This document shows, one piece after another, positions 1 to 9,191 of a stretch of DNA of 64,000 nucleotides. The notes under the pieces are model-generated. The model made no database searches. It was not told the origin of the DNA and saw only the letters and a list, made by a program, of their open reading frames with translations. The stretch lies in IMG/VR virus record IMGVR_UViG_3300045988_080502, positions 1-64,000 of that record, one strand, 5' to 3'. The position numbers and the translations under genes were made by a program. Position 1 is the first letter of the stretch. The number at the start of each line of letters is the position of its first letter. The DNA is from a virus.

Positions 1-26
1 AATAATTTCAAAAGATTCTATGCGTC

Positions 27-893
27 TCAAAATTCGACTGGTTGAATGAGGTCTTCGATATAAAGTCTACCTTCTTCCTTAAAAATAGGAATATTGAGAT
101 CGACGAACCAATAATGTTTAAAATGGATTGAACCATCCTCTCTTTCGGTCTCTTCGCAGTCTTTTATGCAACAAGAACCTCTTTGTAAATAGACGGGCAA
201 TTCATTCCAATCTATTCCTTTTTGAGAAATAAGCATTTCTAAAATTTCGCTACTACATTTACCTTGAAGTTCACTATGAGAAAAATTCGCTTGTCCAACC
301 ATTTGAATAGAATTTCTAATAGCATCTAATTGGCGCCAATAAATTAGATTTGTTACTTCTTCTTTCGGAATATTGAAAACACGAGCATCAAACATAGCCC
401 CTCTTGCGTTTGCTATCCGTAAAGTTCTCATATATTCTTGATGTTCAAGTTGAATTTCTACGCTCTGAGGAGTTAAAGAATTTTTCCAACCAATATCGTA
501 TCTTTCAATAGCTGAACGAAACACCTTATTAAAAATCATTGTTGCCATGGACGCTGCTACAGAACACATTTTTTGAACTTCATAATCAAACCATGCGTCG
601 CTATTTAATTTTTTATAGTCAACAAGAATTAGAGTTATTTCATCGCTTTGAGTATATCCAAGAACACATCCTTGGATATTTTCACATAAATATTTCATTG
701 TTTCTTGCATAGCCGAAGTCAATACCGCATCAAATGGTTTTCTAAAACCTTTAGTAAAGGTATGAAATGCTTTTCCATCAATTCTAATTGCTACAGGTGT
801 TCTACGCATAAGTCGAGTTTTTGGAATTTGCTCATAGAACTCTTTCATGCGAGCGCCTAGCTGGTCATTCATATTATTCATCCTCCTTATCAA
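27..893 (-). CDS. Thg1-like protein (tRNA-His guanylyltransferase / 3'-5' nucleotidyltransferase family)
   Basis: Motifs RIDGKAFHTF..KPFD, GYTQSDEITLIL and FDARVFNIP..YWRQ align with the conserved Thg1/TLP blocks (RLDGRNFHRF, AYGQSDEYSFVF, FDGRVVVYP..SWRQ). Confidence 0.85.
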   Translation of the reverse strand: MIRRMNNMNDQLGARMKEFYEQIPKTRLMRRTPVAIRIDGKAFHTFTKGFRKPFDAVLTSAMQETMKYLCENIQGCVLGYTQSDEITLILVDYKKLNSDAWFDYEVQKMCSVAASMATMIFNKVFRSAIERYDIGWKNSLTPQSVEIQLEHQEYMRTLRIANARGAMFDARVFNIPKEEVTNLIYWRQLDAIRNSIQMVGQANFSHSELQGKCSSEILEMLISQKGIDWNELPVYLQRGSCCIKDCEETEREDGSIHFKHYWFVDLNIPIFKEEGRLYIEDLIQPVEF

Positions 894-1605
894 CAGTAAA
901 GATGTGTTCGTCGAAAGTATCCAAGTTTAGAAGAACAGTTTTTCCAGACATATAACTGCAACAGTCAATATCAACTTTATGATTATCACAATACCATAAA
1001 GCTCCACCATTATATAAGTAAGAGAACTGTCTATCTGGCGGTAGAAAATTATTCGCATTATCTAATCTTAGAATTAAGTATTCTGAAATTGGAGTATGGC
1101 CATGAACGCAAATTCCTTCACCTTCGGTAGTATCATAGATATGCTCTCTATCCCATAGCAAATCCTCGTTTGCTGGGAATGGTTCTTTTGCAGGAGTAAA
1201 ACCCGCATGACAAAGCATAATGGTTATTCCATTTTTATTCTTATATTCAAGATATAGGGGCAATTTTCTTAGATAGTGATACCATCCAGACTTAGCTCCA
1301 TCATTAATCCATCCATTAAAAGTAGAAGCTCCTCCATTCCAACAGAGAAGATCAAAATGACCTCCTCCATATGTTTCATATTTAATATAATCTTTCATAG
1401 CTTTAACAAGCATATCTTCGTGATTACCTTTAATATAGATAAAACGCGGATCCGACGCGACCGCTTTAATAGTTTCCCAAGACCGCGGACCTCGATCGCC
1501 GCAATCTCCTAGACAATAAACTTTATCTTCTGGCTTTAGAAAGTCACTAATTTTTTGATATAGCTCATACATACCATGAAGATCGCTAACTGCGTATACG
1601 CTCAT
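874..1605 (-). CDS. calcineurin-like metallophosphoesterase (lambda Ser/Thr phosphatase-like)
   Basis: SDLHG...GDCGDRGP...GNHE metallophosphoesterase motifs. Confidence 0.8.
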   Translation of the reverse strand: MSVYAVSDLHGMYELYQKISDFLKPEDKVYCLGDCGDRGPRSWETIKAVASDPRFIYIKGNHEDMLVKAMKDYIKYETYGGGHFDLLCWNGGASTFNGWINDGAKSGWYHYLRKLPLYLEYKNKNGITIMLCHAGFTPAKEPFPANEDLLWDREHIYDTTEGEGICVHGHTPISEYLILRLDNANNFLPPDRQFSYLYNGGALWYCDNHKVDIDCCSYMSGKTVLLNLDTFDEHIFTVDKEDE

Positions 1606-1685
1606 AAATAAAACTCCCTTTCTTATATTATATAAATATTATATCATAAATATTATAAAAAATAAAGAGAGCTGTAAAGCTCTCT

Positions 1686-2411
1686 TTAAGAAAAGAATGG
1701 ACAAGTTGGCATAGGGGAAATCTTATGTAAATTTCTCTTATGTCTTTGTTCAATGTTTTTATATATCTCATATGGAGGAGTAATACCATTAAGTAGGAAA
1801 TTATCTAGGACATCATAAGAAAATCCTAAATTTTCCTCATCTGTTAAACCGCTTAATCCATCCTCTGGAGGCTTTTCAATGAAGTTCTTTGGCAATCCAA
1901 GCTCAATACCAATTTCTTTAACTTCCGTGGCAGTATAATTAGAGAGAATAGAAAAATCTCCTGCTGCATCTCCAAATTTAGTAGAATAGCCTACATAGTC
2001 TTCACTTCTATTGCAAGTATTCACAACTCTTCCATGACGGCTCGCGGCGATTGCATAAAGGATATTCATTCTTACTCTTGCTGGAACATTACTTGTAACT
2101 TGCGGCTGAATTCTAATATCATTGGGCAAAGACAAGAAAATCTCCTGACAAGATGAACCAATATTGATGTTGTAATGCTCTGTAATTTCGAGGTAATCAA
2201 TTACCTCATTAGAAACATCAATATCATATTGGAATCCCTGTGGCATTTGTACGGCAATTACTCGATTCGGGCCAAGAGCCTTACAAAGAAGAGCCGCAGC
2301 CACTGTAGAATCTTTGCCGCCAGAAATCCCGATAACAGCTTTACACTCCGGCCCGTTTTTTATGAAATACTCTTTAATCCAATCTATAATTTTAGTAACC
2401 GTATTAGTCAT
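1686..2411 (-). CDS. nadE: NH3-dependent NAD+ synthetase
   Basis: PP-loop SGGKDS motif and overall NadE-like length and arrangement. Confidence 0.8.
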   Translation of the reverse strand: MTNTVTKIIDWIKEYFIKNGPECKAVIGISGGKDSTVAAALLCKALGPNRVIAVQMPQGFQYDIDVSNEVIDYLEITEHYNINIGSSCQEIFLSLPNDIRIQPQVTSNVPARVRMNILYAIAASRHGRVVNTCNRSEDYVGYSTKFGDAAGDFSILSNYTATEVKEIGIELGLPKNFIEKPPEDGLSGLTDEENLGFSYDVLDNFLLNGITPPYEIYKNIEQRHKRNLHKISPMPTCPFFS

Positions 2412-3997
2412 AGAACTTCTCCCATCAATCTCTCTTTAATAGTTTCGATAGTCTCTACGCTCTCCGTACAGAAACTTCCATTCTTGACTTTAAATTTCAT
2501 TACATTGTTCTTATATCCAATGGATTCTTCAAGAGTAAGATTTTCTACTAAAGAATAATCGCCATTCTCCTCTTTAAAAATTGCAACACATCCACGAGGA
2601 GACTTTTTCCCAGGGTCGGTTTTAGGCATTTTATAAATCTGAATTTCATCATTGCCGAGGATACAATCTGTAGCTTTAATAGCATAGCCTCTAGTATCAC
2701 GAGTTACATACTGATAAGTATAAGCTCCAATTCCAAAACATAGATTGGATACTGAGATATTATTTCTAACGCACCAAGAGCAAACTTTTTCAGTAATCTC
2801 TGGAGTAATGGCATCTCCATAAATCATACGAATATAAGAAGGAAGAATAAAATATCCTTTAGTATTCAATTCACCGCCAAAGATTTCTTTTAGAAGATTT
2901 AAAGTTCCTATAAACTCAGGAGAACCGGGTACAGCATCTGGGTCGCCGCAGATAATCTTTACTGGGTCTCCACTATCAGGTCGTACAGAGAAACATCCAT
3001 CTCTTGTTGCAATAACATCATGCAACATGGGAAGAACCTTAGATACAATACCCCAATAATCATATGTATCTGATACATAAGTCATAGTTCCAGTAGGTTG
3101 CACTTCTATGCAAAGATAATTGATAAAAAGCATTTCTGCAATAAGGTTAATATCCCAATTATCAAAAGCGGCCTTAGAGAAAAGATAACGCTCAATTTCA
3201 GTTAAATCTCCATTAGTAATCTTCTGCTTCATCCAAGCTACACCTTGTTCAACAACAGAGTGTTCAAGAGAAGGAGTTCCCATCATGGGAGGATTATTCT
3301 CAAGATCTGCTCCATAGTATTTTTCAAGGAGAAGGTTAGAGCCAATGGTTGCAGTTCTATCAAAAGAAAGAGCATGGGCAGCCCCGGAGATATAGCCTGC
3401 CTCAAGACTTGTGTGTCCGCGCAGAGAAAAGTCGCCACACATATGCGGAAGAGCAGACATATCGTCGCAACTAGTCTTGACATAAGGCTCAATTAACTTG
3501 CGGCGATAAAAAGCGGTAGTGGCAGAAGTCGAGGGGAGCCAGTTATTAGCGCTCCACTGATCTTCGATAAATTGCGGAAGCCACGCAAAATTTTGATGAT
3601 TAGAAAAAATTACATGATCTGGAATCCCGACGGGAAGAAGCGTACCCTCTGGAACTCCCATGATAGAAATAGGTAAATAACCAAGTTTATGCAATTCTTT
3701 AAACTTGGTAAAATCCGCATAATCAGGATGGAAAGTATTTTTAATTACATGATTCCACTCCTGTTCAAGAAGCTCAACTGGCTGATCAAAGAACTCTGTC
3801 TGCCAAAATTCAAGCAGTTTCTGGATGGTATATTGATGACCAAAGACCACTGTCTTAGGGCAATTTGGATGGTGCTTATAACTGCGAGCTGTCCAAGTAG
3901 AATAAACCATAGAGGCAGACTTCGGCTGCATCTTAATAGCATGACCAACTTTGTAGTAGTCAGCGGCAAACATTGGAGCTACATCAAAGAAACTCAT
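2408..3997 (-). CDS. NAMPT/PncB-family phosphoribosyltransferase (nicotinamide/nicotinate PRTase; Namat-like)
   Basis: 529 aa. N-terminal DYYKVGH motif matches the D-x-YK-x-H block of NAMPT/NAPRTase. Adjacent to NAD-related genes. Confidence 0.75.
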   Translation of the reverse strand: MSFFDVAPMFAADYYKVGHAIKMQPKSASMVYSTWTARSYKHHPNCPKTVVFGHQYTIQKLLEFWQTEFFDQPVELLEQEWNHVIKNTFHPDYADFTKFKELHKLGYLPISIMGVPEGTLLPVGIPDHVIFSNHQNFAWLPQFIEDQWSANNWLPSTSATTAFYRRKLIEPYVKTSCDDMSALPHMCGDFSLRGHTSLEAGYISGAAHALSFDRTATIGSNLLLEKYYGADLENNPPMMGTPSLEHSVVEQGVAWMKQKITNGDLTEIERYLFSKAAFDNWDINLIAEMLFINYLCIEVQPTGTMTYVSDTYDYWGIVSKVLPMLHDVIATRDGCFSVRPDSGDPVKIICGDPDAVPGSPEFIGTLNLLKEIFGGELNTKGYFILPSYIRMIYGDAITPEITEKVCSWCVRNNISVSNLCFGIGAYTYQYVTRDTRGYAIKATDCILGNDEIQIYKMPKTDPGKKSPRGCVAIFKEENGDYSLVENLTLEESIGYKNNVMKFKVKNGSFCTESVETIETIKERLMGEVL

Positions 3998-4445
3998 AAA
4001 ATCTTCCTTTCCTTATTTCTTAAATATATTATATCATATATTTTTATAAAAATAAAAAGCCCTCTTTATGAGGGCTTTTATCAACTTTGAAGCAAGCTAA
4101 GCAACGCTTCAATTCCTACATATTCTGGCGCAATCGCACAAGTAATAAGCGGAACACTAACCATTACGCCGACTACTAATACAAACAATAATATAAATAG
4201 CAGTAAATGCCATCTACTATAATCTGCTTCCATCATTATATATAACACAAACCACACTATACCAATAAGTAAGAGGCCAGCAAAAACTCCTATAAAGAGA
4301 GTTGAAGTCAGGTCTTTAACGGTTACATATCAACCATATTTAGCCAACCACATGGGAGCGTTTTCCATAATAGTTTGAGTTGTTACTCCAAAAAATTCTG
4401 CGAGCGACTGAAGAATAGACGCGAGAGTCTGCTCTAAAGATAGAT

Positions 4446-4895
4446 TCACTTTAACAACCCTCCAACAACAGCACTTACAATCTTCATATCTACCTTACCT
4501 TTAAGCTCCATAGAAACAGATTTCATAAGCGTACCACGATTTGCTTTGAGGAGATCAATACCTGCGGTTCCCGCAATCTCTCTTACTTTTGTTTCAATTT
4601 CTGCCTTATCAGTAATAAGCTGAGGGGCGCACATCTTTACGACCTTCATATCCTCTTGATACTGATGTAATTTTTCAGGATAACTAGCAGGACAGGTATC
4701 AATCATTTCTTGTACTGTCTTTTGGTATTTGATAAGGGTTTCATCAACTAGCTGCTCAGTTAATTCAACTCTTCCTTTTGGAGTAATGGCTGCTTTCTGA
4801 CACGCATCAATCATATCAGAAAGCACCCTCTTTGTATTCATATCTCCATTTTTAAGAGCCATAATCTTTAACTCTTGAAGTTTCTCAATCGTCAT
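4446..4895 (-). CDS. GatB/YqeY-domain protein
   Basis: 149 aa helical protein with the YqeY-like pattern. Confidence 0.55.
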   Translation of the reverse strand: MTIEKLQELKIMALKNGDMNTKRVLSDMIDACQKAAITPKGRVELTEQLVDETLIKYQKTVQEMIDTCPASYPEKLHQYQEDMKVVKMCAPQLITDKAEIETKVREIAGTAGIDLLKANRGTLMKSVSMELKGKVDMKIVSAVVGGLLK

Positions 4896-5704
4896 CTTAC
4901 AATCTCTACCTTTCCTCTAATATCCCACTCTGGCTTGAAGATGCTATCAGAAGTGAAGATTTTCTTCACAATATCTTGATTATACATATCACCCTCAATC
5001 ATGGTATGTTCTGCATGGGTCACATACAGATAAACATTCTTTGCGCCAGCTTCTTTGAGGGCATTTGCTGCATGATAAAAAGTTCCACCACGAGAGCAAA
5101 TATCGTCTACAATTAAGACATTTCTCTCTTTAACAATTTCCTCATTCATTAATTGCAAACCAAGAATTTTTCCAGTAGACCAATCTCTTTTCTTAATTCC
5201 AAAAGCATAAGGAAGACTAATGGGTGGAGCAGAATATCTCTTCATCGCTCCTTCATCTGGGAAAAATAGGATAGGAATTTCTCCTTCATATTCCTCAGTT
5301 CTCTTAATAGCCTCTTTGATTTCTCCAATTGGACTAAGATCAATAACTCTATCAAGTAGAGCTAACGATACATTAGAATGAGCATCACGCACAATAACTT
5401 TATCAAAATGAAGGCTATTAATTACTTGACAGAAGTATTTTAGAGTAAATACATCTTCAAGTTCTTGAACTCGATCCATCCTTGCATGAGGAATATATAG
5501 CATATCTAGGTTTACAGGGAAATCTTCGAAATGTCCCTTAACACAAATGAGAGTAAATAATTCTGCATCATTCTCGTACTCCCAAACAATCGTATCATAA
5601 TCGAAGTAGTTGGGAGGCATGTTAATATGCAGCGTACCATCTGGAAAATGATTTTGTTCAATTACGTCTGTCCAATGACTGCGTGTATTAATTAGACTAA
5701 TCAT
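4892..5704 (-). CDS. Prs-family phosphoribosyl pyrophosphokinase-like enzyme (PRPP synthetase / Adps-like)
   Basis: Type I PRTase PRPP-binding motif VLIVDDICSRGGT near the C-terminus. Lies between the NAMPT-like and nicotinamidase-like genes. Confidence 0.6.
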   Translation of the reverse strand: MISLINTRSHWTDVIEQNHFPDGTLHINMPPNYFDYDTIVWEYENDAELFTLICVKGHFEDFPVNLDMLYIPHARMDRVQELEDVFTLKYFCQVINSLHFDKVIVRDAHSNVSLALLDRVIDLSPIGEIKEAIKRTEEYEGEIPILFFPDEGAMKRYSAPPISLPYAFGIKKRDWSTGKILGLQLMNEEIVKERNVLIVDDICSRGGTFYHAANALKEAGAKNVYLYVTHAEHTMIEGDMYNQDIVKKIFTSDSIFKPEWDIRGKVEIVR

Positions 5705-5707
5705 TTT

Positions 5708-6280
5708 TTAATCCTCCACATCAATCTGCTGGGCTTTGAAAATAGTTAGCGCTGCTTCATGCGATTCTGGAGTTACTCCTGCACACGCACTAGAATGGAC
5801 GATAATTCTAGTATTTGGCATCGCCGCACGAAGCATAACTGCATTAGCCATAACGCAAATATCGGTACAAAATCCACAGATATGAATTTCTACTTCCTCG
5901 GGATTCTTCATTTTTAGAGAATCGTATACTTCATTGACCATATCAGTACTGCCGAAGGTATCTTTTTCATAATAGTTAAATTTGTTATTCAACGCAACCA
6001 TAATTCTGGAATCCATACACCAGCCCACACTTGCTTTGATACAATGTTTAATGGGAAGTCTTTTTCCTTCCAAAGTATCAAAGTAATCATTATCATGGGT
6101 ATCCATGGTACAAATAACTTCCTCCCAACAGAATCGTTTAATTAGATTAACGATATTAGGAACCGCGGCATCCGCTGTCTTAGATCCCAAAGAACCAGTA
6201 ATAAAATCATTCTGCGCATCTACAATCACAAGAAGTCTATACATATCATAATTCCTTTCTTTTATATAAATATTATACAA
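5708..6280 (-). CDS. isochorismatase-family hydrolase (nicotinamidase PncA-like)
   Basis: VIVDAQNDF ... catalytic Cys in the CGFCTDICV cysteine-hydrolase signature. Confidence 0.7.
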   Translation of the reverse strand: MYNIYIKERNYDMYRLLVIVDAQNDFITGSLGSKTADAAVPNIVNLIKRFCWEEVICTMDTHDNDYFDTLEGKRLPIKHCIKASVGWCMDSRIMVALNNKFNYYEKDTFGSTDMVNEVYDSLKMKNPEEVEIHICGFCTDICVMANAVMLRAAMPNTRIIVHSSACAGVTPESHEAALTIFKAQQIDVED

Positions 6281-6491
6281 TATTTTATTATAAAATTAAA
6301 GGAGAGAATATACTCTCCTTTAATTTAAAGTTTAATTGGTTATAGAATTGCGTTTATTAGTACACAAAGAAATGTAGCTCCAATGCCAGTATAATACCCA
6401 AGATAAAACTCTTCATCAACTGGGCCAAAAATAGTTTGAACCGTATAATAAACAAAGAGCATACCTACCGCTCCCAAAATAATTCCTAACA

Positions 6492-7763
6492 TTAGATCTC
6501 TTCCTCCTGAGCCTCTTCCATGTCAGGTACATTCTCACTTTCTTTAATAATTCCCTCGATGACTTTAAACTCATAAGTCTTAGACTTAAAAGCTGTGAAA
6601 GCACGACGATTTACAATTCGGACAACGACGCCCTCTTTTACATGGGTGCGGCCGATCGGATCAGTGAGATCTTCGAAGTATTTGTTAATGCGCTCCTGCA
6701 AATCCTCTATGGTAGTAAATTCAAAATCCTCAATCACAGGAACTCGATTAAAGCCATGAGCATTACACCATTCAGTAATCTCGTCAGGAGTCCACTCTCT
6801 TTCTCCATTTTCAGAGGTAATACGATAAATATACATCTTGCTCTGACCAGGCTCACATCCATAAGAGAAAATAGAACGCTTACCAAACTGCTTTACAAAA
6901 GCCTTATCATTGACTTTGGTATTATCTCCGATAGGCATAATGGTGTTCTCTTCATTAGGGCCGTAATAACCCACTACTTCGTAGAAAACTTCCATTCCGG
7001 GCTCAAGATAAGGTTTCAATGCTTCATGATGTGGCATACGAAACTGGTCATTTCCATAAAATCCCTGAGAGTTCTCTGTGACTACACAACGACGAGTTCC
7101 AAGAACATAAGCCTGCTTAGTGCGCTTTTTCATATGGAAGAGGCGACGGAAGAAACCATTAGGAAGCTAAGCATAAGTATTCATAGAGCGCTGAGAAGTT
7201 CCGTGCATTTTAAGGGTCATATTGAGAATATCTCCGGAGCGGAACTTATCAAGATTATATGCCAATTGTTCAGTATCAGTATGCATAGAGAACTCAGGAT
7301 ATGTAATTCCCTCAGCCTTACGACCTTTATAAGAAGTCTTAACCTGACCAGTGGGAGTCTTGCGCTTAGGAATGTATTTACGGCAAAATTCTTTGTCGTT
7401 GATAGTGTTTACCTTATCTCCATCTTTCCAGTTCTGATTTCCGAATTTTTCATAAACTTTATCAAGAGCAATTACAACACCAGAACTCTGATTGCCGCGA
7501 AGCTTAATAGCCCTGATATGTCCATTATTTTCGATGTAGCCACCCTGAGGAGTTCCATCCTCGTTCTTGCGGAAGAGGCAAAATTCATTCCCGAACCATC
7601 TCTCAATCTCGCCATCAGTAGGAAGATAAAGAACCAACTGACCGGTTTGCATATCAGGGCCGACAATTACGCCCTCATTGAAACAATCTGCAAGATAAAG
7701 GCGGTCACTATTCTCGTCCTTCCGCGCATTCTGCAACTTAGTTACAAGACCAAAATATGCCAT
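6492..7763 (-). CDS. ATP-dependent RNA ligase (Rnl2-like) with one in-frame TAG at 7167-7169
   Basis: ORFs 7167..7763 and 6492..7133 are in the same frame, separated only by a TAG. KMHGTS matches the Rnl2 KxHG lysine-adenylation motif I. Confidence 0.65.
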
Positions 7764-7782
7764 TCTATATCATTCTCCTTTC

Positions 7783-8121
7783 TTACCATTTATCATATCT
7801 GTCATGATCAGGATCTTCCTCAACAGTAGTTACCAAATAGGAAAGCCAACCTTCAATTTCCTCTTGATATATACCAGAGATTTCATCTTCATCTTCTTGG
7901 GTCAGTTCATCTTCGGTCAGTTCATTTTCTTCGCAATATTGCTCTCGAATGTCTCCCTCAGACAAAATTCCGTGCATACCCTCATAAGATTGGTACTCTT
8001 CAATCGCTAGCTCTCGAGCGGCTTCCTCGGCGTCTTCTCTAGAGTCATAATCTTCTGTGCAATGATATTGATACCCGCCAAATCCTCCGCCCAGGCCTGC
8101 GTATAAATTATATTTAGCCAT
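7783..8121 (-). CDS. hypothetical acidic protein
   Basis: ORF with RBS; very acidic C-terminal half. Confidence 0.4.
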   Translation of the reverse strand: MAKYNLYAGLGGGFGGYQYHCTEDYDSREDAEEAARELAIEEYQSYEGMHGILSEGDIREQYCEENELTEDELTQEDEDEISGIYQEEIEGWLSYLVTTVEEDPDHDRYDKW

Positions 8122-8929
8122 TTACTCTCCTCCAACCCATTCCGTAGTAGTGGTTACCACCCTTGATAGCTTTCTCGATGTTTTTTATCGTATTTTCAAG
8201 ATTGAAATGCTCATAGGCGTCAGACTCGCATTTATTTTCTTTAAGCCACAATGCAGCAGCTTCAACACTAGTAAAAGTATTTGTAGCCCGCTTCTTAGAA
8301 TTAACAATGCAAATAGTTCCAGCAGGATAACCAGCTTTATTCCATTTAGGAATAAAAACACTTTCTTTATTAGTTGCTTTCCTCTTCCAATCAGCGAACA
8401 TTTCATCAAGTGTTTCTCTTGATGTGTTACTTATAAAATCATATACTTCCTTTAGTAGAACTGCATCATCTAAGGAGTTGTGATTTTGTTCAGCAGAAGG
8501 ATTAAATCTTCTGAGAGTATTCAAAAGACTGTGATTACATTCCCATTTCAGCTCTTTTTTGCACATCTTGGCATAATCTCGATAATTGCCACAAATATAT
8601 CCCAACGCCATTTTTGCTTTAAGTGCAGTCGCATGACGAGAAGTATGTCGAATAAAATCTCCATCAGAATTTCCCCATACAAGAAATTCTGGTGCGTCAT
8701 CTAGATTTTCAAACAACCAATCATAGAACTTAGAGAATACGGCATCGGCAGACATAGCACTATCAATCATCTCTGCTGTGATACCAGTAAGATTAGTAAT
8801 GAAAGGAGTAATTTTACCTTTCTTTGGTGCTACGAGTGCATAAAAAGTCTGACCATCCTCTCTGATACATCCGACAGAAATAATTTCCTGCGAAAATTGC
8901 GTAGCCTCAAAGTCGATAAAATATTTCAT
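8114..8929 (-). CDS. DEDD-family 3'-5' exonuclease (DnaQ-like)
   Basis: N-terminal FIDFEAT...SVG ExoI motif. Confidence 0.65.
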   Translation of the reverse strand: MKYFIDFEATQFSQEIISVGCIREDGQTFYALVAPKKGKITPFITNLTGITAEMIDSAMSADAVFSKFYDWLFENLDDAPEFLVWGNSDGDFIRHTSRHATALKAKMALGYICGNYRDYAKMCKKELKWECNHSLLNTLRRFNPSAEQNHNSLDDAVLLKEVYDFISNTSRETLDEMFADWKRKATNKESVFIPKWNKAGYPAGTICIVNSKKRATNTFTSVEAAALWLKENKCESDAYEHFNLENTIKNIEKAIKGGNHYYGMGWRRVNG

Positions 8930-9191
8930 TACTAATAATCTCCCCTCTTAATAATTTTGAAACTCCATTGTTACAGGAAGAACTTTGTGTTTCTGTTCAA
9001 ATTGATCCCAAATTACCTCTTCTCTTGACACTATTACCTTCATAGGTTGTGATTGAGAAGCAATTTGTTGAACAGTTTGAATAAATTTAATCTCTATGAA
9101 TGGTCTCGGCGCCTGCATTCTCCATTGTCGAATAATTTGATTATCTAGATAGATACTAAAAGTAACATCAAAAATATCTTCATTCATGACA

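What the first reader, a model, noticed from the sequence alone, without database searches (positions are those of the whole stretch)
1686..6280. NAD+ salvage/reconstitution cluster: NAMPT-family PRTase + Prs-family kinase + NadE + nicotinamidase-like hydrolase
Four adjacent genes. A Prs-like enzyme next to a NAMPT-like enzyme matches the phage NAD+ reconstitution pathway NARP1 (Adps + Namat). NARP1 counters NAD-depleting defences such as Thoeris, DSR and SIR2. The extra NadE and isochorismatase-family gene are unexpected for NARP1. They suggest either a deamido route (nicotinamide to nicotinate, then a deamido-NAD-like intermediate amidated by NadE) or a combined salvage pathway.
Basis: partly seen in the sequence, partly recalled or inferred. 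Interest (0 to 1): 0.75.

Follow-up and report, generated by a model that had tools for sequence, protein, structure and literature searches.

The report
Deamidated NARP1-like NAD+ rebuilding module
A gut phage carries a conserved four-enzyme set that most likely rebuilds NAD+ from ADP-ribose and nicotinamide via nicotinic acid and deamido-NAD, a variant of the known phage pathway NARP1 that I found described in no paper and that also sits in Clostridia chromosomes.

Summary
The four genes are at the stated coordinates, all on the minus strand: a nicotinamidase, an Adps-like ADPR pyrophosphokinase, a Namat-like transferase and NadE. An accessory YqeY ORF and a terminator/promoter pair lie between them.

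The transferase is a Namat, not a Nampt or PncB. It scores 323 bits to the SPbetaL1 Namat structure against about 135 to Nampt, and its adenine-clamp motif is intact.

Its pyridine pocket is changed. Against validated Namat, D215 becomes Ala, A242 becomes Ser and H187 becomes Gly.

I classified 174 phage and bacterial loci.
- All 107 loci with the usual acid/Ala pocket lack NadE and nicotinamidase nearby.
- Nearly all 67 loci with the Ala/Ser pocket have them, in several gene orders.
- No adenylyltransferase is ever present.

The Ala/Ser clade is monophyletic and nested inside Namat. It also occurs as NrtR-linked operons in Clostridium and Oscillospiraceae chromosomes.

Best reading, inferred and not assayed: Nam is converted to NA; ADPR is converted to ADPR-PP; NA plus ADPR-PP gives NaAD; NadE converts NaAD to NAD+. 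I file it as a new variant of NARP1. No paper in the searched library describes it.

The parts
5708..6280 (-). Nicotinamidase (PncA-like, isochorismatase fold). The likely true start is the ATG at 6244.
   Evidence: PF00857, E = 7e-20. Of the eight PDB hits, five chains are deposited as nicotinamidases or pyrazinamidases (1ILW, 9U8M, 2WT9, 3PL1, 3O90), and the two best are named isochorismatase. D21, K106 and C142, plus D60, H62 and H79, align to P. horikoshii PncA D10/K94/C133 and D52/H54/H71. The residue roles are from my own knowledge of that enzyme.
4892..5704 (-). Adps-like ADP-ribose pyrophosphokinase (Prs superfamily).
   Evidence: phmmer scores: 154 bits to SPbetaL1 Adps, 125 to FADO Adps, 87 to Bas63 Adps, 40 to E. 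coli Prs. TIGR01251 scores 80 bits, below the 113-bit cut-off, while PHROG 619 scores 225 bits. The catalytic Lys, SPbetaL1 K162, aligns to K171 and is invariant across the nine sequences aligned. Its nearest relatives are the partners of other Ala/Ser-type transferases.
4446..4895 (-). YqeY/GatB-like domain protein. It is an accessory gene found in this phage clade only.
   Evidence: PF09424, E = 7e-9. It is present in L002-L004 and absent from the Phass-1, MT835544 and bacterial versions of the module.
4081..4257 (-). Small ORF with two hydrophobic segments. Its coding status is uncertain.
   Evidence: ORF list and sequence reading only.
4055..4079 (-). Intrinsic-terminator-like hairpin that ends the first transcription unit.
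   Evidence: A 10-bp stem (AAAAGCCCTC...GAGGGCTTTT) followed by a T-run.
4023..4056 (-). Promoter-like site with an extended -10 (TGATATAAT at 4036-4028), ahead of the transferase gene.
   Evidence: Consensus scan and direct reading of the sequence. A GGAAAGGAAG ribosome-binding site precedes the ATG at 3997.
2408..3997 (-). Namat-family ADPR-PP transferase with an altered pyridine pocket (G188, A216, S243). It is the proposed nicotinate ADP-ribosyltransferase that forms NaAD.
   Evidence: It scores 323 bits to PDB 9w5x, against about 135 bits to human, rodent and bacterial Nampt structures. 9w5x is SPbetaL1 Namat: the aligned fragment is 100% identical to the phage gene. The clamp motif GAYTYQYVTRD is present and the catalytic core D13, Y15, F190, R193, H246, R339 and D341 is conserved. 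The pocket substitutions are described.
1686..2411 (-). NH3-dependent NAD+ synthetase (NadE), single domain.
   Evidence: PF02540, E = 4e-46. TIGR00552 scores 157 bits, above the 63.65-bit cut-off. The SGGKDS P-loop starts at residue 30. Sixteen of the 19 PDB hits are single-domain (249-307 aa) NH3-dependent NAD+ synthetases; the other three are long 549-590 aa forms, two of them named glutamine-dependent.
1663..1688 (-). Intrinsic-terminator-like hairpin that ends the second transcription unit.
   Evidence: An 11-bp stem followed by a T-run, immediately after the NadE stop codon.

Best explanation
This is a four-enzyme, deamidated version of the phage NAD+ reconstitution pathway NARP1. It would rebuild NAD+ from the two products of defence NADases, ADP-ribose and nicotinamide.

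Proposed steps:
1. The nicotinamidase hydrolyses nicotinamide to nicotinate plus NH3.
2. The Adps-like kinase pyrophosphorylates ADPR with ATP to give ADPR-PP.
3. The Namat-family transferase keeps Namat's adenine clamp but has a remodelled pyridine pocket. It joins nicotinate to ADPR-PP and gives deamido-NAD (NaAD) directly, with no mononucleotide intermediate and no adenylyltransferase.
4. NadE amidates NaAD to NAD+ with ATP and NH3.

The phage copy is read from host-type promoters as two units. It lies in a part of a TAG-recoded genome that has no recoded codons, which fits early expression.

What is shown here: the family assignments, residue conservation, pocket substitutions, gene-neighbourhood covariation and phylogeny. 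What is inferred: every catalytic step, the nicotinate specificity, and the anti-defence role.
For: Core identity
- The transferase is much closer to the solved SPbetaL1 Namat (323 bits) than to Nampt (about 135 bits). It carries the Namat clamp signature G-S/A-arom-T-arom-Q-arom-x-T-R-D defined in PMC12774641. Nampt outgroups have GMGGGLLQ instead.
- The kinase groups with validated Adps, not with Prs, and keeps the catalytic Lys.

Pocket switch
- SPbetaL1 D215, which hydrogen-bonds nicotinamide, and A242 are both listed among the nicotinamide-pocket residues in PMC12774641. They are Ala and Ser here and in all 120 database homologues.
- A scan for clade-discriminating positions ranks 242, 187 and 215 at the top, then 239, then (after 382) 240. 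All five lie at or next to the pocket. None of the clamp positions discriminates.
- The human equivalents H191, D219 and A244 are known substrate or inhibitor-site residues. D219 sets substrate specificity: D219S switches substrate affinity and D219A abolishes activity (PMC7096376, PMC4919578).
- Namat D215A loses about 8-fold activity with nicotinamide (PMC12774641).
- E. coli PncB has Ser and Thr at the positions that correspond by motif order.

Covariation
- 107 of 107 loci with Asp/Glu + Ala lack NadE and isochorismatase within 8-10 kb.
- Among the 67 Ala/Ser or Ser/Ser loci, most have both, and the exceptions are largely truncated contigs.
- At 70% identity clustering, 9 of 9 Ala/Ser clusters have both genes against 0 of 50 acid/Ala clusters.
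- Gene order differs between lineages while the gene content is kept.

Completeness
- No HxGH adenylyltransferase occurs in any fetched locus except one acid/Ala locus (L149), or in the 64-kb window.
- The canonical Clostridium operon is nrtR-pncA-pncB-nadD-nadE (PMC2330246). Here adps + transferase stand where pncB + nadD would be.

Other support
- Modelling in PMC9316036 finds PncA and Nampt best kept mutually exclusive. A nicotinamidase next to a nicotinamide-using transferase would compete with it for substrate.
- Bacterial copies sit next to NrtR, whose effector is ADPR, in 37 of 47 loci (PMC2330246).
- The Ala/Ser clade is monophyletic (165 of 200 bootstraps) and nested within Namat.
Against: - No biochemistry exists for any member of the Ala/Ser clade.
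- Ser243 could in principle replace Asp as the hydrogen-bond partner of the nicotinamide amide, leaving substrate choice unchanged.
- The equivalence with PncB rests on motif order and inspection. The profile-profile alignment covered only the C-terminal half, at 7.5% probability.
- The covariation reflects essentially one ancestral event, because the clade is monophyletic. It shows long-term retention of the gene set, not repeated independent gain.
- Fifteen Clostridium loci have the nicotinamidase but no NadE in the operon. Some gut phage scaffolds carry NadE without the module.
- The best PDB hit of NadE is 3FIU. I recall this as the Francisella NaMN-amidating enzyme, although the margin over ordinary NadE is only 4 bits.
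- The Adps partners of the clade are not strictly monophyletic.
- The extra ATP cost has no demonstrated benefit.
Confidence: 0.6

Rival explanations
1. This is canonical NARP1 plus two independent helpers. The transferase still joins nicotinamide to ADPR-PP, as Namat does. The nicotinamidase and NadE merely boost the host's own Preiss-Handler route (PncB and NadD supplied by the host), giving a combined salvage.
For: [quoted passage not shown] NadE occurs alone in other phages. Ser243 might substitute for the lost Asp as a hydrogen-bond partner.
Against: - The pocket residues change in complete step with the presence of the two extra genes, across 59 non-redundant clusters.
- The nicotinamide-contacting Asp is lost without any conserved acidic replacement nearby. 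The motif reads FDRTATI, FTGTATI or FLNTATV in different lineages.
- The D-to-A change cripples both human NAMPT and Namat on nicotinamide (PMC4919578, PMC12774641).
- A nicotinamidase would drain the transferase's own substrate (PMC9316036).
Confidence: 0.2
2. This is a PRPP-based nicotinate salvage. The Prs-like enzyme makes PRPP and the NAMPT-family enzyme acts as a nicotinate phosphoribosyltransferase that makes NaMN. The host NadD then makes NaAD and the phage NadE finishes the pathway. In effect it is a Preiss-Handler pathway with a non-orthologous PncB.
For: The pocket resembles PncB at two positions. NCBIfam's nearest model is named nicotinate phosphoribosyltransferase: 345 bits, below the 405-bit cut-off. 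Validated Namat can still use PRPP in vitro (10.1101/2024.02.11.579819; PMC12774641).
Against: - The clade is nested inside Namat, with the adenine-stacking aromatics conserved over sequences as low as 31% identical. The clamp mutant R40A/F392G keeps its PRPP-dependent activity (PMC12774641), so the clamp would be free to decay if only PRPP were used.
- The kinase belongs with Adps. SPbetaL1 Adps gave no Prs-type product in the published assay (10.1101/2024.02.11.579819).
- nadD is never in the operon, although nadE is.
- The bacterial copies neighbour the ADPR-sensing regulator NrtR.
Confidence: 0.12
3. This is an NMN-synthetase route. NadE amidates NaMN to NMN, as the Francisella enzyme does, and a host adenylyltransferase completes NAD+.
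For: The best PDB hit of NadE is 3FIU (249 aa, 112 bits). From memory this is the Francisella NMN synthetase. The phage NadE is similarly short, at 241 aa.
Against: - The margin over an ordinary archaeal NadE (2E18, 108 bits) is trivial.
- The route would be a pointless detour compared with Nampt.
- No NadM or NMNAT lies near any Ala/Ser locus.
- In Francisella the NMN synthetase goes together with NadM replacing NadD (PMC3376133).
Confidence: 0.03

Closest known systems
NARP1 (Adps + Namat), from Osterman et al., bioRxiv 10.1101/2024.02.11.579819; Namat structure in PMC12774641
   Same: - An adjacent Adps-clade kinase and Namat-clade transferase.
- The catalytic Lys of Adps is conserved.
- The Namat catalytic core and the adenine selectivity clamp are conserved.
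- The expected inputs, ADPR and a pyridine base, are the same.
- Some relatives also carry the Macro phosphatase of NARP1-AP (L010, L036, L089).
   Different: - The nicotinamide-pocket residues are replaced: H187 to Gly, D215 to Ala or Ser, A242 to Ser.
- The module is obligatorily associated with a nicotinamidase and usually with NadE.
- The predicted product of the transferase is NaAD, not NAD+.
- It costs one more ATP.
- The clade is found only in Clostridia and their phages in the samples examined.
Preiss-Handler / PncA salvage (pncA-pncB-nadD-nadE), for example the C. acetobutylicum NrtR operon (PMC2330246)
   Same: The first step (nicotinamidase) and the last step (NadE) are the same. 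The deamidated intermediates are the same. The regulation by a neighbouring NrtR in bacteria is the same.
   Different: PncB and NadD are absent from the module. An Adps + Namat-type pair stands in their place, so the ribose-phosphate-adenosine part would come ready-made from ADPR instead of from PRPP + ATP.
NARP2 (Nampt + Nmnat, Vibrio phage KVP40) and NARP3 (PnuC + NadR; PMC13464706)
   Same: These are also phage-encoded pathways that rebuild NAD+. NARP2 uses a transferase of the NAMPT family.
   Different: The window has no Nmnat, NadR or PnuC signature. The transferase has the Namat clamp, not the Nampt GGGLLQ segment.
Bacterial prs-nadV operons under NrtR (Shewanella, Acinetobacter; PMC2330246) and bacterial NARP1 (Paenibacillus; PMC12774641)
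   Same: They are chromosomal Adps-Namat pairs next to NrtR. The bacterial relatives of this module have the same layout.
   Different: Those operons are the Asp/Ala type and never have a nicotinamidase or NadE alongside.

Membership tests
NARP1 | A Prs-family gene of the Adps clade lies next to a Namat homologue. | tested here: met
   The genes are separated only by the YqeY ORF and a short gap. The kinase scores 87-154 bits to three Adps and 40 bits to E. coli Prs, below the TIGR01251 cut-off.
NARP1 | The Adps catalytic lysine (SPbetaL1 K162) is present. | tested here: met
   It aligns to K171 and is invariant in the nine Adps sequences aligned.
NARP1 | The Namat selectivity-clamp helix motif G-S-X-phi-X-phi-X-phi-T-R-D, with aromatic X, is present. 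| tested here: met
   The window has GAYTYQYVTRD at residues 424-434. Only the Ser at position 2 is Ala. The aromatics are kept across the clade.
NARP1 | The Namat clamp loop has a stacking residue, with Arg, Lys or Tyr at the third loop position. | tested here: inconclusive
   K41 aligns to SPbetaL1 R40 and is followed by His42. The loop is variable, and stacking cannot be judged from sequence.
NARP1 | The Namat/Nampt catalytic core is present (D13, Y15, F189, R192, H245, R306, D308). | tested here: met
   All are conserved, as D13, Y15, F190, R193, H246, R339 and D341.
NARP1 | The nicotinamide-binding pocket has Asp215 and Ala242. | tested here: not met
   The window has Ala216 and Ser243, and Gly188 in place of His187. 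The same holds in all 120 homologues and in the 67 related loci.
NARP1 | ADPR is converted to ADPR-PP, and ADPR-PP plus nicotinamide is converted to NAD+. | not testable with these tools
   This needs enzyme assays.
NARP1-AP | A Macro-domain ADPR-1''-phosphate phosphatase lies in the operon. | tested here: not met
   No Macro hit falls within the 20 kb around the module in the window. One is present in the relatives L010, L036, L089 and L090.
NARP2 | A Nampt-type transferase (no aromatic clamp) occurs together with an Nmnat. | tested here: not met
   The clamp is Namat-type. No HxGH nucleotidyltransferase motif occurs in the 64-kb window. The rest of the phage genome was not examined.
Nicotinamidase (PncA) | The Asp-Lys-Cys triad and the Asp-His-His metal site are present. 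| tested here: met
   D21, K106 and C142, and D60, H62 and H79, align to the P. horikoshii PncA residues. The NCBIfam nicotinamidase model matches only weakly: 21 bits against a 174-bit cut-off.
NH3-dependent NAD+ synthetase (NadE) | The family model scores above its cut-off, and the SGGxDS ATP pyrophosphatase loop is present. | tested here: met
   TIGR00552 scores 157 bits against a 63.65-bit cut-off. SGGKDS starts at residue 30. Specificity for NaAD versus NaMN was not testable.
Canonical nicotinate phosphoribosyltransferase (PncB) | The protein shows sequence membership of the PncB family. | tested here: not met
   The profile comparison with E. coli PncB gives 7.5% probability and covers the C-terminal part only. 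The protein's nearest solved structure is SPbetaL1 Namat.

The most novel reading that the evidence does not exclude
The Ala/Ser clade of Namat-family enzymes catalyses a reaction not yet described: nicotinate + ADPR-pyrophosphate gives deamido-NAD + PPi. This would define a further NAD+ reconstitution pathway, PncA-Adps-'Naat'-NadE. The pathway would serve as an NrtR-controlled ADPR-recycling route in Clostridium and Oscillospiraceae, and would have been captured by their gut phages to defeat NAD+-depleting immunity in hosts that salvage pyridines only through the deamidated route.
Probability: 0.55. Interest if true: 0.8.

Novelty: new variant of a known kind. Interest (0 to 1): 0.75.

Why it matters
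If the inference holds, it has four consequences.
- It adds a new enzyme activity and a new short-cut in NAD metabolism: NaAD made without NaMN or NadD.
- It shows that NARP1-type ADPR recycling has diversified to fit hosts that rely on the nicotinamidase route.
- It moves the pathway from 'phage-specific counter-defence' towards an ancestral bacterial ADPR-salvage function under NrtR control.
- It gives a simple sequence rule for separating the two kinds. The Gly/Ala/Ser pocket (SPbetaL1 positions 187/215/242), with a neighbouring nicotinamidase and NadE, marks this variant; His/Asp/Ala marks the known one. Family-level hits (PF04095, PHROG 448, NCBIfam PRK09198) do not separate them, so annotation by family alone would label both alike.

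It also points to three residues that could be swapped to re-engineer the substrate choice of Namat or Nampt.

Tried and rejected
- A megablast of the region against GenBank phages found nothing. Only protein-level searches were informative.
- A single-protein search for related loci returned only close relatives. A mixed alignment was needed.
- The profile-profile alignment to E. coli PncB covered only the C-terminal half. The PncB comparison therefore rests on motif order.
- An Rfam scan of 1-9000 found no riboswitch or other RNA above threshold.
- I searched for an NMN or NaMN adenylyltransferase by HxGH motif in the window and all loci. None turned up, apart from an unrelated FDPITLGH protein in one Asp/Ala locus.
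- I tested whether the Adps partners of the Ala/Ser clade are monophyletic. They are not in the NJ tree (0 of 100 bootstraps), although they are one another's nearest neighbours.
- Four NadE-bearing gut phage scaffolds from GenBank lack the rest of the module on their contigs. NadE alone is therefore not diagnostic.
- I considered and rejected that D213 in 'FDRTATI' is a shifted equivalent of Asp215. Other lineages have FTGTATI or FLNTATV, with no acid there.
- I considered NARP3 (PnuC + NadR). It is unrelated.
- Literature searches for NARP1 with nicotinamidase or NadE, for ADPR-PP with NaAD, and for Namat with nicotinate found no description of this variant. Subscription-only papers could not be searched. 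Sorci et al. 2009 could not be read.
- I did not run structure prediction. No ligand docking or coordinate access was available to test the pocket.

Full report
WHAT IS THERE

On the minus strand of the window lie, in order of transcription:
- an isochorismatase-family gene (5708-6280; PF00857, E = 7e-20);
- a Prs-like gene (4892-5704);
- a YqeY/GatB-like ORF (4446-4895);
- a roughly 450-bp stretch;
- a NAMPT-family gene (2408-3997; PF04095);
- NadE (1686-2411; PF02540, E = 4e-46; TIGR00552 157 bits against a 63.65-bit cut-off).

The stretch between the YqeY ORF and the NAMPT-family gene holds a small hydrophobic ORF, a strong terminator-like hairpin (4079-4055) and an extended -10 element (TGATATAAT, 4036-4028). 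A second hairpin follows NadE (1688-1663). The cluster is therefore probably two adjacent transcription units. No Rfam family is present.

GENOMIC SETTING

- The window carries 30 tRNA genes, including a suppressor tRNA with anticodon CTA.
- An RNA ligase gene is interrupted by a single in-frame TAG.
- The nearest named relative is phage phAss-1 (OQ749652.1), filed under the 'code 15' clade. Its predicted host is in the Clostridia (PMC10607447).
- The four NAD genes contain no in-frame TAG and end in TAA or TGA, so their boundaries are safe.
- A 92%-identical copy lies on a 149-kb contig binned with an Oscillospiraceae MAG.

THE TRANSFERASE IS A NAMAT, NOT A NAMPT OR PNCB

- Against all PDB sequences its best matches are 9w5x/9w5w at 323 bits. 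Human, rodent and bacterial Nampt score about 135 bits.
- The aligned fragment of 9w5x is 100% identical to the gene of Bacillus phage SPbetaL1 that Osterman et al. and Lan et al. characterised as Namat.
- Lan et al. (PMC12774641) define a Namat-specific adenine 'selectivity clamp' with the motif G-S-X-phi-X-phi-X-phi-T-R-D, where X is aromatic. The window protein has GAYTYQYVTRD.
- Two phage Nampt outgroups have GMGGGLLQ at that place.
- The catalytic core is intact: D13, Y15, F190, R193, H246, R339, D341.
- A profile comparison with E. coli PncB is marginal.

THE KINASE IS ADPS-LIKE

- It scores 154, 125 and 87 bits to the Adps of SPbetaL1, FADO and Bas63, and 40 bits to E. coli Prs. The validated Adps themselves score 41-58 bits to E. 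coli Prs.
- It falls below NCBIfam's Prs cut-off (80 bits against 113) but scores 225 bits to the phage family PHROG 619.
- The lysine mutated by Osterman et al. (K162) aligns to K171 and is invariant.

THE OTHER TWO ENZYMES

- The isochorismatase-family protein's PDB hits are nicotinamidases and pyrazinamidases plus two chains named isochorismatase and one cysteine hydrolase. In the alignment to the P. horikoshii enzyme it keeps the catalytic triad and the metal site.
- NadE is a single-domain, NH3-type enzyme with the SGGKDS loop.

THE KEY FINDING: A POCKET SWITCH

In the Namat crystal structures the nicotinamide ring is held by F189, R192, D215, A242, R306, D13' and Y15'. D215 hydrogen-bonds the amide.
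- In the window protein D215 is Ala216 and A242 is Ser243.
- The same pair is present in all 120 database homologues, from 99% down to 40% identity.
- SPbetaL1, Bas63 and the Nampt outgroups have Asp/Ala.
- No conserved acidic residue compensates nearby. Different lineages read FDRTATI, FTGTATI or FLNTATV.
- A scan for positions that separate the two groups ranks 242, 187 (His to Gly, fully discriminating) and 215 at the top, then 239, with 240 a further place down after 382. All five are at or beside the pyridine pocket. No clamp position appears.
- The human equivalents H191, D219 and A244 are documented substrate or inhibitor-site residues. D219 defines substrate specificity: D219S switches it and D219A abolishes activity (PMC7096376, PMC4919578).
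- Namat D215A loses about 8-fold activity.
- By motif order, E. coli PncB carries Ser (GTSN) and Thr (TQAHE) at the two positions. A few members of the new clade are Ser/Ser.

COVARIATION WITH THE NEIGHBOURHOOD

I fetched 80 diverse viral loci and 80 species-representative bacterial loci with a mixed alignment. I added the earlier loci and searched each with HMMs for NadE, nicotinamidase, Adps and Macro.
- Of 107 loci with Asp/Ala or Glu/Ala, none has NadE or an isochorismatase gene within 8-10 kb. Nearly all have Adps.
- Most of the 67 Ala/Ser or Ser/Ser loci have a nicotinamidase, NadE and Adps in the neighbourhood. Among the 47 bacterial loci the counts are 43, 30 and 44. Among the 20 viral and reference loci, 18 have both nicotinamidase and NadE, and 19 have Adps.
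- The exceptions are truncated contigs, or Clostridium operons without nadE.
- After clustering at 70% identity the split is 9 of 9 against 0 of 50.
- Gene order differs among lineages while the content is kept:
  - isoC-adps-x-transferase-nadE in this window;
  - adps-transferase-macro-nadE-isoC in MT835544;
  - adps-isoC-transferase-nadE-nrtR in Clostridium sartagoforme.
- No adenylyltransferase is found in any Ala/Ser locus or in the window.

PHYLOGENY AND DISTRIBUTION

- In a neighbour-joining tree rooted on Nampt, the Ala/Ser group is one clade (165 of 200 bootstraps). It is nested within the Namat radiation.
- In genomes it is confined to Clostridium, other Clostridiaceae, Oscillospiraceae and related Bacillota. 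Asp/Ala pairs occur in Paenibacillus, Cohnella, Shewanella, Saprospiraceae and others.
- In one Oscillospiraceae MAG the four genes sit beside rpmG-secE-nusG.
- In bacteria both kinds usually neighbour an NrtR regulator: 37 of 47 Ala/Ser loci and 28 of 33 Asp/Ala loci. The phage copies do not.
- NrtR is released from DNA by ADPR. The classical Clostridium acetobutylicum operon is nrtR-pncA-pncB-nadD-nadE (PMC2330246). The present module looks like that operon with adps + transferase in place of pncB + nadD.

MECHANISM, INFERRED

Nicotinamide from NAD+ cleavage is deamidated. ADPR is pyrophosphorylated. The transferase joins nicotinate to ADPR-PP and gives NaAD. NadE amidates NaAD, possibly re-using the NH3 released in the first step. 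The scheme is closed with exactly the four conserved enzymes.

It also explains why a nicotinamidase can sit beside a NAMPT-family enzyme. The two would otherwise compete for nicotinamide, and modelling finds PncA and Nampt best kept mutually exclusive (PMC9316036).

A plausible rationale, which is speculation, is adaptation to hosts whose own nicotinamidase rapidly removes nicotinamide.

RIVALS AND CAVEATS

- The clade's monophyly means the covariation is retention, not repeated gain.
- Ser243 might bind the amide in place of the lost Asp.
- The enzyme might use PRPP.
- The best PDB hit of NadE is 3FIU, which I recall as the Francisella NMN synthetase. The margin is only 4 bits, and no NadM accompanies the module.
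- NadE also occurs alone in other gut phage scaffolds.
- The Adps partners are not strictly monophyletic.

NOVELTY

The NARP1, NARP1-AP, RyDEP and NARP3 papers and the Namat structure paper do not mention nicotinamidase, NadE, nicotinate or a deamidated route. The targeted searches found nothing either. Within what could be searched, this is an undescribed variant of a known pathway. Family-level matches (PF04095, PHROG 448, NCBIfam PRK09198) do not distinguish it from ordinary Namat or Nampt.

Noticed in passing
window 16920-37116, with the suppressor tRNA at 17979-18054 (-): There is a block of 30 tRNA genes that includes a tRNA with anticodon CTA. Together with the in-frame TAG noted below, it shows that the phage reads TAG as sense (code 15-like), as phAss-1 does.
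   Followed up: partly
window 6492-7769 (-), with the TAG at 7167-7169: An RNA ligase gene is split into two listed ORFs by one in-frame TAG. Read through, it is a single 425-residue protein (426 codons with the stop) with a KMHGTS motif just upstream of the TAG.
   Followed up: partly
window 27-1605 and 6492-8929 (-): The NAD module is flanked by tRNA-repair-type genes: a Thg1-like tRNA-His guanylyltransferase, a NinI-like metallophosphatase, the RNA ligase and a 3'-5' exonuclease. Bacillus phage FADO also has a Thg1 gene about 2 kb from its NARP1 (L177). This hints at a recurring counter-defence neighbourhood.
   Followed up: no
window 4446-4895 (-): A YqeY/GatB-like domain protein is inserted between the Adps-like and transferase genes. 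It occurs only in this phage clade (L002-L004). Its function is unknown.
   Followed up: partly
window 4081-4329 (-): A small ORF with two hydrophobic segments lies just before the terminator. It is in frame with a 39-codon ORF upstream, across a TGA. Its coding status is unclear.
   Followed up: no
L151, L159, L164 (Shewanella) and other Asp/Ala bacterial loci: The 'prs-nadV' operons under NrtR were described in 2008 as an unexplained dedicated PRPP supply. By clamp motif and Adps adjacency they are Asp/Ala-type Adps-Namat pairs, and 28 of 33 such bacterial loci neighbour NrtR. This fits ADPR recycling as their native role.
   Followed up: partly
L096 (CALWOP010000177.1, 148,971 bp): A contig 92% identical across the transferase, and about the size of the phage genome, is binned in an Oscillospiraceae MAG. 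It is probably the phage itself, which gives a weak host hint.
   Followed up: no
window about 46-48 kb and 60-64 kb: The GC skew changes sign and G+C content drops to about 0.30. This suggests switches in coding strand or inserted modules.
   Followed up: no
L180-L183 (MT835946, MT836475, MT836279, MT835800): These gut phage scaffolds carry a NadE that is 33-47% identical to the window's, but have no Adps, Namat or nicotinamidase on the same contig. What NadE does there is open.
   Followed up: partly
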